A stretch of DNA of 64,000 bases from a virus. The stretch is from the IMG/VR virus record IMGVR_UViG_3300029585_000027, positions 253 to 64,252 of that record; one strand, written 5' to 3'. Positions 2,908-21,007 of this stretch are shown here, piece by piece. The position numbers and the translations under genes were made by a program. Each line of letters begins with the position of its first letter. Position 1 is the stretch's first letter. The notes under the pieces were generated by a model. It ran no database searches. It saw only the letters and a list, made by a program, of their open reading frames with translations, and had not been told where the DNA came from.

Positions 2908-4260
2908 CTATCCCTTGTAAGTTGAAAACCAGTCAAAAGCGCCATCAATGTCACTAAACTCACCATCTAGCTGTGCCTCAAAGGCAGCATCTAGCATCTC
3001 GCCCATAAGACGTCCAGGCTTAATGCCCATTCCCATCAGGTGACGCCCCATCAGAATTGGCGCAGGCTTATCTGTAGCGATATCTAGCTGATCCGCCCTA
3101 TCAGTCCAAGACTTGAAGGGGTTACCCGGTGGCAATGGTGGACGACCAGAATGATCTGCCTCTACTACCCTACCAAGGGCAGTAATTGTAGCTGGAGCAA
3201 TACGATTAGCCAGACGTCGAATAGCCCTATCAGATGGGTTGTCGATACCGGCATGCACAAGATGTTCTGAGATTAGCGGAAGGACCTCAACGATCACAGA
3301 ACGTGGAGCGCCAATACGCTCAAGAAAGGCTTCCGCAGGCTCGACACCAGCTTCGCAATGCCCCTTAGCGCGCCAGCGCCCATCTTCAAACTTGGTGGTA
3401 GGGGGCTTGCCGAAGTCATGACATAGCGCGGCGAATAGCAGCACGATCCTATCATGATCTCCTAGTTGCTCTCTTTCTGCAATCCTAGCGGCAGCATCGA
3501 CTACATGACATGTGTGGATAAATACATCACCTTCGGGATGCCACTCCTTGTCTTGTGGCGTTCTAACGAGCGCCTTAATCTCGGGGTCAAGCCAGTATGT
3601 GTGTAGAAGCGTTTGTAGGCCAAAAGAAGGTGCGCATCCCTTAAGAGCCCACTTCTTCCACTCCTCCCACATACGTTCCTTGGGAAGTTCAGACTTAAAT
3701 TGAGCCATACCACGACAGATTTCTTCTGTGCGTGGATCAAGGATCATCTGAAACCTTGAGGCAAATTGCATCGCTCGCATTACCCTCAATGGGTCTTCTA
3801 CGAATGTCTTAGGATCTGTTGCGCGTAGATAGCCAACAGGAAGATCTACTTGTCCACCATGCGGATCGACAATAGTCCCATCCATACGCATTGCCATCGA
3901 ATTGATTGTGAAATCACGACGACTTGCGGCATCTTCAATACTCATGTCGGGGTCGGGCACAATGTCGAAACCACGGTGACCGACTCCAACCTTGTTATCC
4001 CTGCGTGGGACACTGACGTCGATTTGATTGTCAATCTTAAGGACACCAAATGCCTTTCCAACAGCATCTACACGAAGACCGGCAGCCGTAAGCTTAGACT
4101 GGATCTGATCCAAACCCATGCCGTAAACTTCGATATCGACATCCTTGCTTTGGATGCCTAGAAGTGTATCACGGACAAATCCACCGACAATCAATACATC
4201 TCGCGCACCAGCTTCATTGAGTAGGTGCATAATGTTTCTTACTTCGCTTGGAATACTCAT
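2908..4260 (-). CDS. cca: CCA-adding enzyme / tRNA nucleotidyltransferase with HD domain
   Basis: VGGFVRD, DVDIEV, RRDFTINSMA, EDPLRVMRAMQFASRF, WHPEGDVFIHT, ALCHDFGKP. Confidence 0.9.
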   Translation of the reverse strand: MSIPSEVRNIMHLLNEAGARDVLIVGGFVRDTLLGIQSKDVDIEVYGMGLDQIQSKLTAAGLRVDAVGKAFGVLKIDNQIDVSVPRRDNKVGVGHRGFDIVPDPDMSIEDAASRRDFTINSMAMRMDGTIVDPHGGQVDLPVGYLRATDPKTFVEDPLRVMRAMQFASRFQMILDPRTEEICRGMAQFKSELPKERMWEEWKKWALKGCAPSFGLQTLLHTYWLDPEIKALVRTPQDKEWHPEGDVFIHTCHVVDAAARIAEREQLGDHDRIVLLFAALCHDFGKPPTTKFEDGRWRAKGHCEAGVEPAEAFLERIGAPRSVIVEVLPLISEHLVHAGIDNPSDRAIRRLANRIAPATITALGRVVEADHSGRPPLPPGNPFKSWTDRADQLDIATDKPAPILMGRHLMGMGIKPGRLMGEMLDAAFEAQLDGEFSDIDGAFDWFSTYKG

Positions 4261-4278
4261 ACAGTAGTATACCACACG

Positions 4279-12277: not shown

Positions 12278-12365
12278 CTAGTTGTCCTTTTGTCTGCCAA
12301 TCCAATTTAATCTAGAGGAAGGTGAGTCAGAGCGATCAAAGTCATAACTCTGTCCCCTCCAGATA

Positions 12366-12440
12366 AGGTGCCCTCGCTAGGGAATTAAACCCCAATCTAC
12401 TGGGCTTCAGTCGCTTTCACATTAAGCTAACTAGAACACC
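12366..12440 (-). ncRNA. degenerate tRNA-shaped RNA (pseudo-tRNA or tRNA mimic)
   Basis: Four-arm fold: GGTGTTCT/AGGGCACC, GCTT/AAGC, ACTG/CAGT, TGGGG-TTTAATT-CCCTA; TATACT 9 nt upstream; no encoded CCA. Confidence 0.45.
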
Positions 12441-19572: not shown

Positions 19573-19869
19573 TTACGCTACGATGAACGTCTCTCCGCTG
19601 ACGTTGAACGATACAAGGGTGGCGAGATTGACCATGCGATACTCGCGTTTGGTCATGTCGAACACGGGAAGGAGGTTACGACGCTTAGCATCGTAGGGGA
19701 GTTCGCCCCCGGCAAGGTGTCGCTTTACGCCTCTACGGCACTTCATTTCGCGCATCGTTCCGTCTCGTTTACGGAAATAGGCTGTAAAGATTCGACCTTG
19801 TGTTTCGTTCCACAAGAATACGCTAGCGCGTTCTCGTGCGATCGGTTGGGGCTCGCGGATTGTCGTCAT
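19573..19869 (-). CDS. SH3/Sm-like beta-barrel protein (WYL_2-like)
   Basis: FTAYFRKRDGTMREM...VFDMTKREYRMVNLATLVSF. Confidence 0.65.
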   Translation of the reverse strand: MTTIREPQPIARERASVFLWNETQGRIFTAYFRKRDGTMREMKCRRGVKRHLAGGELPYDAKRRNLLPVFDMTKREYRMVNLATLVSFNVSGETFIVA

Positions 19870-19898
19870 CGTTTCTTCTAGTTGCCTTCCGTCAGAAC

Positions 19899-19927
19899 AG
19901 TATATCACCATCCCAACGGATAAGCAA
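19899..19927 (-). promoter_or_regulatory. sigma70-type early promoter
   Basis: TTGCTT-17-TATACT. Confidence 0.6.
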
Positions 19928-19960: not shown

Positions 19961-20443
19961 CTAGCCTTCGCTTTCGTCGTCCTTCGTGGCGAATGCGGCT
20001 TCGTGCTCTTCGTCGGTGCGCTTCGATTCGTCTGACAGTGGCGTCAGATCGTCGGGCATATCGACGTCGTCACCTTGCTCGGCAGCGGCCAAAAGTGCTT
20101 CGAGTCGTTCGATATCGAACGGGAGTTTGGCGGCGAATGCCGTTGCGCGGTCGCGAGTCTCAATCTGAGACGCCAGACGTGCTTGAGTCTGCTTGATCTT
20201 GTCGTCGATCGACGAACGCACCATACCCTTGCCATCCGGTCCCGGCTGGCTACCTTCCAAGGTGAACCGTGCCGCCTTGAGTTCGGTAGTCGTCTTGCGG
20301 AGACGGCGCTTGATCGCCTTCAGTTTGCCGCTTTCGGTGCTGGTGTCGATCTTGCCCGCCATCTTGGCTTCGAGTCGCGCTTGCTCTTTCTTGAAGTGCT
20401 CCAACATTTCCGCATCGGTGCGGCGGTTTCGCTTGTTTCCCAT
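19961..20443 (-). CDS. coiled-coil hypothetical protein
   Basis: 160 aa, AAGGA upstream. Confidence 0.65.
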   Translation of the reverse strand: MGNKRNRRTDAEMLEHFKKEQARLEAKMAGKIDTSTESGKLKAIKRRLRKTTTELKAARFTLEGSQPGPDGKGMVRSSIDDKIKQTQARLASQIETRDRATAFAAKLPFDIERLEALLAAAEQGDDVDMPDDLTPLSDESKRTDEEHEAAFATKDDESEG

Positions 20444-20665: not shown

Positions 20666-20694
20666 TTGACAGGTCGTGTTTTGTGTGATATACT
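20666..20694 (+). promoter_or_regulatory. consensus sigma70 promoter pointing antisense to local genes
   Basis: TTGACA-17-TATACT with TGTG extension. Confidence 0.8.
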
Positions 20695-20780: not shown

Positions 20781-20820
20781 AAAAAAAGAACGGGCAGCAC
20801 CTACAAGGCACTACCCGTTC
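20781..20820 (-). terminator. intrinsic terminator downstream of the mini-tmRNA
   Basis: 14-bp stem GAACGGGTAGTGCC/GGTGCTGCCCGTTC (three G.U pairs) followed by T7. Confidence 0.85.
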
Positions 20821-20852
20821 TCAACACCTCAACTCAACTCTCTCAAACCAAA

Positions 20853-20969
20853 TGGTGGAGACGGTGGGAATTGAACCCACGTCCAACTAGGCAAGCCGCG
20901 TTTTTTGCTAGGGCGTTTGGCGCGGTGGGACTCTCACCCTGTTCCTAGTTGTCTAAACCGATCGTCCCC
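20853..20969 (-). ncRNA. miniature tmRNA-like RNA (tRNA-like domain only, 117 nt)
   Basis: 5' GGGGACG-ATCGGTTTAGAC, helix CAACTAGG/CCTAGTTG, GGAC, T-arm GTGGG-TTCAATT-CCCAC, 3' CGTCTCC-ACCA; G3.U70 and A73 present. Confidence 0.85.
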
Positions 20970-20978
20970 ATATGCTGT

Positions 20979-21007
20979 AGTATACCCTAAGATTCGCCCG
21001 TTGTCAA
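20979..21007 (-). promoter_or_regulatory. promoter of the mini-tmRNA
   Basis: TTGACA-17-TATACT, ending 9 nt before G1. Confidence 0.85.

What the first reader, a model, noticed from the sequence alone, without database searches (positions are those of the whole stretch)
20781..21007. Stand-alone 117-nt mini-tmRNA: alanine-identity tRNA-like domain with no mRNA-like domain
Seen: the minus strand reads GGGGACG ATCGGTTTAGAC AACTAGG AACAGGGTGAGAGTCCCACCGCGCCAAACGCCCTAGCAAAAAACGCGGCTTG CCTAGTT GGAC GTGGGTTCAATTCCCAC CGTCTCC ACCA. It has a 7-bp acceptor stem with G3.U70 and discriminator A, an encoded CCA, a stemless D-loop ending in GAC, an 8-bp helix CAACTAGG/CCTAGTTG, a GGAC linker and a canonical T-arm. 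A consensus promoter ends 9 nt before G1 and a T7 terminator follows. The ~52-nt interior can form one H-type pseudoknot (AGGGTG/CGCCCT and CCGCG/CGCGG, A-rich loop), reminiscent of pk1. Established: these are the tmRNA (ssrA) features used by AlaRS, SmpB and EF-Tu; normal tmRNA is about 350 nt with a tag ORF, and tag-less forms are known mainly from some mitochondria. Inference: a phage TLD-only RNA that could be alanylated and either sequester SmpB and blunt trans-translation, add Ala without a tag, or act as a decoy for tRNA/tmRNA-cutting defences. The only tag-like remnant is CAA AAA ACG CGG CTT GCC TAG (QKTRLA-stop), which is speculative.
Basis: partly seen in the sequence, partly recalled or inferred. 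Interest (0 to 1): 0.9.

Follow-up and report, generated by a model that had tools for sequence, protein, structure and literature searches.

The report
Phage tag-less mini-tmRNA, 117 nt
An uncultured, mostly marine phage carries a 117-base RNA gene that keeps only the alanine-accepting, tRNA-like end of the bacterial ribosome-rescue RNA (tmRNA); this kind of RNA is already known from one mycobacteriophage, and here it appears as a distinct, conserved, larger variant.

Summary
Window 20853-20969 (-) is a 117-nt gene that matches Rfam tmRNA at 68.4 bits (cut-off 47). Only the tRNA-like domain (TLD) and one helix align. A sigma-70-type promoter ends 9 nt before G1, and a 17-bp terminator with seven T follows. 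I found 15 distinct relatives of 114-119 nt in independent metagenome assemblies, so mis-assembly is excluded.

Covariation supports five helices: acceptor stem, P2, two interior hairpins and the T stem (97.9% of cells paired; 13 of 28 pairs change on both sides). G3:U70, A73 and CCA are invariant. The QKTRLA-stop frame is kept in 14 of 15 members but cannot be separated from the helix constraint, so I do not accept it as a tag.

The kind is known: the 'TLD only' tmRNA of mycobacteriophage DS6A (PMC4131195, PMC11915505). This scan has already noted more than 100 phage mini-tmRNAs on other DNA.

New here are the conserved 66-nt three-way-junction interior and one unexplained fact: helix P2 carries CAACUAG, the phage's most over-represented early-gene start motif.

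The most likely function, inferred and not shown, is competition with host tmRNA for SmpB, with tag-less alanine addition. No RNA data were available. Interest is moderate.

The parts
20853..20969 (-). Mini-tmRNA gene, 117 nt: acceptor stem, stemless D-loop, helix P2, interior hairpins A and B, GGAC linker, T arm, ACCA
   Evidence: Rfam RF00023 68.4 bits. Own covariance model R1 129.7 bits. Five helices supported by covariation in 15 homologs.
20979..21007 (-). Sigma-70-type promoter TTGACA-17-TATACT, ending 9 nt before G1
   Evidence: 11 of 12 matches. A comparable dedicated promoter is seen in only one other family member, L007; in the rest the RNA directly follows the upstream ORF.
20786..20822 (-). 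Intrinsic terminator: 17-bp stem, 3-nt loop, then seven T
   Evidence: A hairpin followed by a T run appears downstream in at least 10 family loci.
20944..20951 (-). P2 5' strand CAACUAGG. It contains the heptamer CAACUAG that is enriched before early genes.
20883..20890 (-). P2 3' strand CCUAGUUG. It holds the UAG of the putative QKTRLA-stop frame.
20924..20936 (-). Interior hairpin A: GGG-UGAGAGU-CCC
   Evidence: Minimum-free-energy fold. It changes to GCGG/CCGC and GGGG/CCCC in relatives.
20893..20922 (-). Interior hairpin B: CCGCG/CGCGG with a 20-nt A-rich loop
   Evidence: 4 of 5 pairs change on both sides; 98.7% of cells paired.
20666..20694 (+). Opposite-strand consensus promoter pointing at the RNA gene. 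It is part of a repeated border module of the early region.
   Evidence: An equivalent promoter lies 60-500 nt downstream of the RNA in 14 of 15 family loci.
19961..20443 (-). Conserved downstream neighbour: 160-aa all-helical protein of unknown function (P0001)
   Evidence: 28 homologs. Every homolog contig with at least 500 nt of upstream DNA carries the RNA. No Pfam family and no PDB fold match.
2908..4275 (-). CCA-adding-type nucleotidyltransferase (PolyA_pol head plus HD domain), a possible 3'-end repair enzyme for this RNA
   Evidence: Pfam PF01743 7.1e-17 and PF01966 6.7e-10. No tRNA reaches the gathering score in the 81.9-kb record.

Best explanation
It is a phage-encoded, tag-less mini-tmRNA. 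The RNA folds into the complete tRNA-like domain of tmRNA, with a 66-nt three-way-junction insert where the mRNA-like domain and pseudoknots would be.

Inferred steps:
1. It is transcribed early from its own sigma-70 promoter and trimmed to G1...CCA.
2. Host AlaRS charges it with alanine through G3:U70 and A73.
3. Host SmpB binds at the D-loop/GAC/GGAC elbow, and EF-Tu binds the charged RNA.
4. It then competes with host tmRNA for SmpB and for stalled, mRNA-empty ribosomes. Non-stop products made during infection would then receive only alanine, possibly several, instead of the proteolysis tag, or trans-translation would simply be damped.

Shown here: identity, structure, conservation and expression signals. 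Inferred from published work on TLD fragments: charging, SmpB binding and the effect on rescue.
For: - Rfam tmRNA 68.4 bits against a cut-off of 47.
- 15 distinct homologs of 114-119 nt.
- Covariation: 97.9% of cells paired, 13 of 28 pairs changed on both sides, 0 of 500 shuffles reach this, slid controls 43-53%.
- G3:U70, A73, CCA, GAC and GGAC are invariant in 15 of 15.
- D-loop GG goes with T-loop UUC in 9 of 9 members, and D-loop AG goes with T-loop (U/G)GC in 6 of 6. This fits a conserved elbow contact.
- Promoter and terminator are present.
- No SmpB gene in the 81.9-kb record, so a host partner is needed.
- No canonical tag frame.
[quoted passage not shown] 2009; also PMC11915505). A TLD fragment with SmpB supports polyalanine synthesis without mRNA (PMC3929946, citing Shimizu and Ueda 2006).
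- I located the DS6A RNA myself: JN698994 28478-28560, 83 nt, 43.2 bits.
Against: - No transcript evidence. No RNA run holds the locus, and the runs that share words hold only relatives as DNA-like contigs.
- Host, AlaRS charging and SmpB binding are untested.
- The 66-nt interior is conserved, which a pure SmpB sponge would not need; DS6A manages with about 20 nt.
- A sub-clade has a non-canonical T-loop, GGCAGNN.
- Only 2 of 15 loci have a dedicated promoter.
- P2 is far more sequence-conserved than a helix requires and equals an early-gene motif, which hints at an additional or different role.
Confidence: 0.62

Rival explanations
1. It is a working minimal tmRNA. After alanine transfer the ribosome resumes on the short frame (Q)-K-T-[R/G/Q]-[L/F]-[A/V]-stop, which runs from the A-rich loop of hairpin B through its 3' strand and the linker into P2. 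This would add a 5-7-residue tag with a hydrophobic end.
For: - The frame and an in-frame stop at the same codon are present in 14 of 15 members: UAG 13 times, and UAA in L033 despite three changed P2 pairs.
- Several changes are synonymous third-position changes (CAA/CAG, AAA/AAG, ACG/ACA, CUU/CUC), and the second positions at columns 71 and 80 are invariant.
- The peptide ends in LA, FA or LV, loosely like tmRNA tags.
- Tags of only 2 aa exist in real tmRNAs (PMC11915505).
Against: - Most of the frame lies in helices, so its conservation follows from the covarying structure.
- L034 loses the stop by the same change that breaks a P2 pair.
- There is no GCN resume codon. An upstream U-A-G spaced as in E. 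coli would select a frame with no stop (my own analysis).
- The stop lies 5 nt from the TLD 3' half, so the closed RNA loop is only 66 nt. That is very short for threading through the mRNA channel (inference from published tmRNA-ribosome structures).
- The numbers are too small for a codon-position test.
Confidence: 0.1
2. The tRNA-like domain is mainly a scaffold or stabiliser. The working part is P2 or the interior: the RNA acts as a decoy for whatever reads the CAACUAG early-gene start motif, or as an antisense seed (CUAGUUG) against it. That would tie early-gene translation or processing to this RNA.
For: - CAACTAG occurs 54 times in the window against 7.3 +/- 2.5 in shuffles.
- It is the top sense-strand heptamer of the early arm: 25 observed against 3.7 expected, z 11, with the RNA gene masked.
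- 22 of 26 early-arm copies lie within 30 nt upstream of an ORF start.
- The P2 5' strand is this heptamer and the 3' strand is its complement.
- 13 of 15 homologs keep it while the other helices covary freely.
- Relatives' flanks are enriched too, for example L004 with 14 sense and 2 antisense copies in 9 kb.
Against: - L033 and L034 changed P2 to CUAUUAGG and CAUUUAGG while their own genes keep CAACTAG leaders.
- Complementarity does not extend beyond 7 nt.
- Both strands are locked in P2.
- In L004- and L031-type relatives the heptamer overlaps the -35 box (TTGACAACTAG), so it may be a DNA-level signal.
- The chance of the top heptamer falling in a 117-nt gene is about 1%, which is small but not negligible.
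- The invariant G3:U70/A73/CCA features argue that charging matters.
Confidence: 0.15
3. It is a decoy or spare substrate for host defences or phage takeover enzymes that cut or strip tRNA-like 3' ends. It would be serviced by the phage's own CCA-adding/HD enzyme.
For: - The phage encodes a PolyA_pol-head plus HD nucleotidyltransferase.
- No tRNA reaches the gathering score in the 81.9 kb held, so this RNA is the only evident phage-encoded client.
Against: - No defence system that targets tmRNA is known to me.
- The record is about 49% complete, so tRNA genes may lie elsewhere.
- Nothing in the sequence tests this.
Confidence: 0.06
4. It is a non-functional remnant: a decayed phage tmRNA, or an attP-type fragment of a host ssrA gene.
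For: Phages often integrate into ssrA and carry its 3' end, and the mRNA-like domain is missing here.
Against: - Both halves of the TLD are present, with a promoter and terminator.
- 15 diverged homologs keep length and structure through compensatory changes.
- No tyrosine integrase in the record.
- Gene order is standard, not permuted (permuted model 22.4 bits against a cut-off of 47).
Confidence: 0.02

Closest known systems
'TLD only' (CDS-less; 'Standard, no CDS') tmRNA of mycobacteriophage DS6A (tmRNA Website tmID 11587; PMC4131195; PMC11915505; Mao et al. 2009, RNA Biol 6:355, not readable here)
   Same: - Phage-borne, in standard gene order, with a complete alanine-type TLD and helix P2 and no tag coding sequence.
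- Detected only through the TLD by the tmRNA model (DS6A 43.2 bits).
- Missed by ARAGORN and unannotated in its GenBank record.
   Different: - DS6A is 83 nt, with about 20 nt beyond P2 forming a simple hairpin, and ends in CUA rather than CCA.
- The window RNA is 117 nt, with a conserved 66-nt three-way junction, an encoded CCA, its own promoter and terminator, and a P2 that equals an early-gene motif.
- There is no sequence relation outside the TLD. Host and phage lineage are unrelated.
Bacterial one-piece tmRNA (SsrA; Rfam RF00023)
   Same: Acceptor stem with G3:U70 and A73; D-loop GG...UUNGAC; GGAC; T arm; CCA; a helix in the position of H2a.
   Different: 292 of 374 model positions are absent: no PK1-PK4, no H5, no resume codon, no tag of the usual length.
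Engineered TLD fragments used in vitro (T. thermophilus TLD-SmpB crystal 2CZJ; Shimizu and Ueda 2006, as reviewed in PMC3929946 and PMC3985003)
   Same: The same parts are retained: 5' about 25 nt and 3' about 34 nt joined by a short insert. These fragments bind SmpB and EF-Tu, enter the ribosome and give polyalanine without mRNA.
   Different: Those are laboratory constructs closed by a UUCG loop. This is a natural, conserved gene with a structured 66-nt insert.
Mitochondrial (jakobid and oomycete) and plastid CDS-less tmRNAs (PMC11915505)
   Same: TLD retained, no tag reading frame, presumed to work with SmpB.
   Different: The organellar forms are permuted or about 65 bp, and the partner SmpB is encoded by the host nucleus. 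This one is viral, in standard order, and longer.
Other phage mini-tmRNAs found here and noted earlier by this scan (L002 110 nt in a tRNA array; L003 122 nt; L035 163 nt)
   Same: The same TLD frame.
   Different: The interiors are unrelated in sequence and fold. L035 belongs to the same phage group (its neighbour protein is 49% identical) yet has a different 112-nt interior and a different P2.

Membership tests
tmRNA (SsrA, RF00023) | Score at or above the curated Rfam gathering threshold | tested here: met
   68.4 bits against 47. However, 5 of 15 family members fall below the threshold and are found only with the family-specific model.
tmRNA (SsrA, RF00023) | Alanine identity set: 7-bp acceptor stem with G3:U70, discriminator A73, 3' CCA | tested here: met
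   G3:U70 in 15 of 15, ACCA in 15 of 15, acceptor stem 100% paired with 2 covarying pairs.
tmRNA (SsrA, RF00023) | tRNA-like elbow: T arm with a 7-nt T-loop, stemless D-loop with GG and UUNGAC, and 3' GGAC | tested here: met
   In the window: GUGGG-UUCAAUU-CCCAC, D-loop AUCGGUUUAGAC, and GGAC. D-loop and T-loop co-vary across the family.
tmRNA (SsrA, RF00023) | mRNA-like domain: resume codon (usually GCN) and a tag frame ending in a stop | tested here: not met
   Only a 6-codon frame, QKTRLA-stop, lying mostly inside helices. No GCN resume codon in that frame. The stop is lost in L034.
tmRNA (SsrA, RF00023) | Pseudoknots (PK1 before the tag, PK2-4 after it) | tested here: not met
   The proposed PK stem 1 pairs in 64.8% of cells with no consistent covariation, while hairpin A competes for the same bases and covaries.
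tmRNA (SsrA, RF00023) | Alanylation by AlaRS, SmpB and EF-Tu binding, activity on stalled ribosomes | not testable with these tools
   Needs biochemistry. No SmpB gene in the 81.9-kb record.
TLD-only / 'Standard, no CDS' tmRNA (DS6A type) | Complete TLD in standard gene order, with no tag coding sequence | tested here: met
   The permuted model scores only 22.4 bits against a cut-off of 47.
TLD-only / 'Standard, no CDS' tmRNA (DS6A type) | Interior reduced to little more than a closing hairpin (total 65-85 nt) | tested here: not met
   The interior is 66 nt (117 nt in total) and forms a conserved three-way junction. The DS6A RNA is 83 nt in total.
TLD-only / 'Standard, no CDS' tmRNA (DS6A type) | Inhibits host tmRNA when expressed | not testable with these tools
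   Reported for a similar molecule and for DS6A (PMC4131195, PMC11915505). Not tested for this RNA.
tRNA (RF00005) | Anticodon arm and D stem | tested here: not met
   ARAGORN finds none. Within the clan, the tmRNA model is the best match for this stretch.
ssrA-derived attP fragment of an integrating element | Only the 3' part of ssrA, next to an integrase | tested here: not met
   Both the 5' and 3' halves are present. No Phage_integrase match in the record.

The most novel reading that the evidence does not exclude
The RNA is more than an SmpB sponge. Its unusually sequence-conserved helix P2 is the phage's own early-gene start motif (CAACUAG) paired to its complement. An alanine-charged tmRNA mimic would then be wired into the control of early-gene translation or mRNA processing, either as a decoy for the reader of that motif or as a 7-nt antisense seed released when P2 opens.
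Probability: 0.15. Interest if true: 0.85.

Novelty: new variant of a known kind. Interest (0 to 1): 0.5.

Why it matters
Trans-translation is the main ribosome-rescue route in bacteria, and how phages handle it is poorly known. A natural, conserved, promoter-driven TLD-only RNA in a whole group of large uncultured phages shows that the single DS6A case is not an oddity.

It also provides a defined family for experiments: 15 sequences, a covariance model and a supported secondary structure. Three questions become testable:
- Does it block SsrA tagging?
- Does it add bare alanine tails?
- What does the conserved 66-nt insert do?

Standard annotation misses it: ARAGORN finds none, and Rfam at its gathering score misses a third of the family. 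Phage tmRNA mimics are therefore under-counted.

The link between helix P2 and the early-gene motif CAACUAG, if real, would connect ribosome-rescue mimicry with phage early-gene control.

Tried and rejected
1. BLAST of the locus, and of 15 kb around it, against 50,697 phage records gave no match. The terminase is at most 30% identical to Bacillus and Clostridium phage terminases. The neighbour proteins have no cultured relatives. Host and phage lineage therefore stay unknown.
2. Pattern scans of viral contigs gave only L002, L003 and L004. The genome-contig scan gave four chance hits with no tmRNA.
3. Expression: no RNA run holds the locus. Laying four runs showed only relatives as contigs, with no ends and no direction.
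5. The mini-ORF as a tag could not be separated from structural constraint.
6. The neighbour protein P0001 has no significant Pfam family. Its AlphaFold model is all-helical (pLDDT 87.3) with no PDB fold match. Its constant adjacency may be simple vertical inheritance.
7. No SmpB and no integrase in the record.
8. The conserved element and the opposite-strand promoter downstream of the RNA at first looked specific to this locus. They are a module repeated at several early transcription-unit borders (earlier notes e1-5324789 and e1-5324792).
9. ARAGORN's 323-nt 'tmRNA' in L033 starts in the Shine-Dalgarno of a 60-aa ORF and is spurious.
10. The full-length tmRNA in L008 shares GGTGACAGTCC at the same spacing. 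I take this as a chance pattern hit.
12. Mao et al. 2009 is not held, so its content is cited only through PMC4131195 and PMC11915505.

Full report
**1. The observation**

Rfam's tmRNA model (RF00023) matches it end to end at 68.4 bits, against a gathering score of 47 (E 1.6e-24). Only the tRNA-like domain (TLD) and the first helix align; 292 interior model positions are replaced by 42 unaligned bases. ARAGORN reports nothing in the window.

A TTGACA-17-TATACT promoter (11 of 12 matches) lies at 21007..20979 and ends 9 nt before G1. A 17-bp hairpin at 20822..20786 is followed by seven T. The window is bases 253-64252 of an 81.9-kb IMG/VR virus record that CheckV puts at 49% complete. That record holds only this one tmRNA-like gene. 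It has a terminase, a portal protein and a DNA ligase but no close cultured relative.

**2. It is a conserved gene, not an artefact**

- One homolog came from viral contigs (L004, a 176-kb contig).
- Three came from a metagenome pattern scan (L007, L010, L011).
- The 160-aa protein encoded about 400 nt downstream (P0001) has 28 homologs. I fetched their contigs.
- A covariance model built from ten sequences (R1) finds the RNA in every such contig that has at least 500 nt upstream of the protein gene.
- In total there are 15 distinct full-length members of 114-119 nt, one copy cut by a contig end, and a 163-nt variant.

These come from JGI, ENA/TARA and Logan assemblies of different samples, many of them marine. 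A mis-assembled deletion of a full-length tmRNA is therefore excluded. Rfam at its gathering score misses 5 of the 15. ARAGORN finds none of them; its one call, in L033, starts in the Shine-Dalgarno of a 60-aa ORF and is spurious.

**3. Structure**

On the model-based alignment A5, the five helices pair in 97.9% of cells. Thirteen of 28 pairs change on both sides, none of 500 shuffles reaches this, and partners slid by 1-3 columns give 43-53%.

| Helix | Pairs changed on both sides | Cells paired |
|---|---|---|
| Acceptor stem | 2 of 7 | 100% |
| P2 | 4 of 8 | 99.2% |
| Hairpin B | 4 of 5 | 98.7% |
| T stem | 3 of 5 | 100% |

G3:U70 is present in 15 of 15 members, as are A73 and CCA.

Hairpin A is misaligned by one column for one clade, but it reads GGG/CCC, GCGG/CCGC or GGGG/CCCC around a 7-nt loop UGARAGU. 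It appears in the unconstrained minimum-free-energy folds of most members.

Its outer pair holds in 2 of 15 members. In the L004 clade, where hairpin A changed by compensation, the supposed partner in loop B did not follow. The interior is therefore best described as a three-way junction of P2, hairpin A and hairpin B, with hairpin B carrying a 20-nt A-rich loop. A 3-4-bp GGG(U)/(G)CCC alternative remains possible in 11-12 members.

D-loop GG goes with T-loop UUC in 9 of 9 members, and D-loop AG goes with T-loop UGC or GGC in 6 of 6. That is what a conserved G18/G19-to-55/56 elbow contact would give. This reading is an inference from tRNA structure.

**4. Is there a tag?**

In one frame the RNA reads CAA AAA ACG CGG CUU GCC UAG. 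Across the family this is (Q)-K-T-[R/G/Q]-[L/F]-[A/V]-stop.

- The stop is kept in 14 of 15 members. That count includes UAA in L033, where three P2 pairs changed.
- In L034 the stop is lost by the same change that breaks a P2 pair.
- Several differences are synonymous. However, most of the frame lies in covarying helices, there is no GCN resume codon, and the stop is 5 nt from the TLD.

I rate a working mini-tag at about 10%.

**5. What it most likely does**

All determinants that AlaRS and SmpB use on tmRNA are present and invariant, and the record encodes no SmpB.

- Hudson et al. list DS6A as a phage with 'TLD only'. They state that a similar molecule, chargeable or not, strongly inhibits tmRNA, perhaps by titrating SmpB (PMC4131195).
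- The 2025 database paper says the DS6A form inhibits endogenous tmRNA in E. coli, and counts 9 'Standard, no CDS' sequences (PMC11915505).
- A TLD fragment with SmpB supports polyalanine synthesis without mRNA in vitro (PMC3929946).

My best reading (0.62) is an alanine-charged SmpB-binding competitor. It would blunt SsrA tagging of products from broken messages during infection, and may add bare alanine instead. Nothing here shows transcription or activity: no RNA run holds the locus.

**6. Context**

Only the window and L007 have a dedicated promoter. Elsewhere the RNA follows directly on the upstream ORF and would need RNase P processing. A hairpin followed by a T run lies downstream in at least 10 loci.

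A consensus promoter on the opposite strand points at the gene in 14 of 15 loci. It belongs to a border module repeated elsewhere in the early region (earlier notes e1-5324789 and e1-5324792), so I do not treat it as specific to this RNA.

The gene order RNA - P0001 - WYL_2/Sm-like protein (PF10902) - SprT-like - GP88 is conserved. P0001 is all-helical with no fold match.

The phage encodes a CCA-adding-type enzyme with an HD domain, and no tRNA reaches the gathering score.

**7. An unexplained link**

The P2 5' strand is CAACUAGG. The evidence on CAACTAG:

- It occurs 54 times in the window, against 7.3 +/- 2.5 in shuffles.
- It is the most over-represented sense-strand heptamer of the early arm: 25 observed against 3.7 expected with the RNA gene masked.
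- 22 of 26 early-arm copies are followed within 30 nt by the start of an ORF.
- Relatives show the same enrichment. In L004- and L031-type phages the heptamer overlaps the -35 box as TTGACAACTAG.
- P2 keeps the heptamer in 13 of 15 members while the other helices covary freely.
- L033 and L034 lost it in P2 but keep it before their genes.

The chance that the top heptamer falls in a 117-nt gene on either strand is about 1% (my estimate). I cannot say whether this reflects a shared reader, an antisense seed or a DNA-level signal.

**8. Comparison and novelty**

The DS6A RNA is at JN698994 28478-28560. It is 83 nt, scores 43.2 bits, and is unannotated in its record. It shares only the TLD frame with the window RNA.

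This scan has already recorded more than 100 phage mini-tmRNAs on other DNA. The kind is therefore known.

What is new is a distinct 117-nt family with a conserved three-way-junction insert, its own expression signals in this phage, and the link between P2 and the early-gene motif. My rating is a new variant of a known kind, with interest 0.5.

Noticed in passing
window 1-24600 (- strand), e.g. 24087, 23040, 19081, 12972: CAACTAG is the top over-represented sense-strand heptamer of the early arm (25 observed against 3.7 expected, RNA gene masked). It sits 0-30 nt before the start of 22 of 26 following ORFs and supplies an in-frame TAG stop to 9 upstream frames. The late arm shows no such enrichment.
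   Followed up: partly
L004 (e.g. 2548, 3756, 4955, 5143 in RNA-gene orientation); L031 996, 1413: In relatives the heptamer overlaps the -35 box: TTGACAACTAG-N12-TATACT, with the ATG only about 5 nt after the -10 box. This suggests many leaderless or near-leaderless early mRNAs.
   Followed up: no
window 20666-20694 (+) and the equivalent sites in 14 of 15 family loci: A consensus TTGACA-17-TATACT promoter on the otherwise non-coding strand points at the RNA gene. It is followed by the repeated element GCATGCCCGAG..CTCGGG and a TCTCA..TGAGA hairpin. In L004-type loci no terminator separates it from the RNA gene, so it would produce an antisense transcript.
   Followed up: partly
window 12378-12429 (-): A sub-threshold tRNA-like match (RF00005, 24.8 bits against 29) lies just behind a TATACT -10 box and before an ORF whose ATG is near 12345. 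It has a T-arm-like GGGGUUUAAUUCCC and a possible 7-bp acceptor-like stem.
   Followed up: no
window 2908-4275 (-): A CCA-adding-type nucleotidyltransferase (PolyA_pol head plus HD domain) in a phage record where no tRNA gene reaches the gathering score.
   Followed up: partly
window 20969/20972 (relative in run X1): A 1.9-kb contig of a close relative carries 113 extra letters immediately upstream of G1 of the mini-tmRNA, possibly a second small RNA gene. The sequence could not be fetched.
   Followed up: no
L023, L024, L025, L027, L028 (T-loop of the RNA): A sub-clade replaces the T-loop UUCRAUU with GGCAGNN, together with a D-loop change from GG to AG. Rfam's tmRNA model drops these below its gathering score.
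   Followed up: partly
L035 1123-1285 (+), also L036: A phage of the same group (neighbour protein 49% identical) has a 163-nt mini-tmRNA with an unrelated 112-nt interior and a different P2 (GUGUC/GACAC).
   Followed up: partly
L002 8298-12734: Another viral contig has a 110-nt mini-tmRNA lacking the encoded CCA, embedded in an array of at least nine tRNA genes.
   Followed up: no
window 19573-19911 (-): A WYL_2 / Sm-like SH3 beta-barrel protein (PF10902, 1e-06) is conserved two genes downstream of the RNA in all longer family loci. It is a candidate RNA-binding partner, untested.
   Followed up: no
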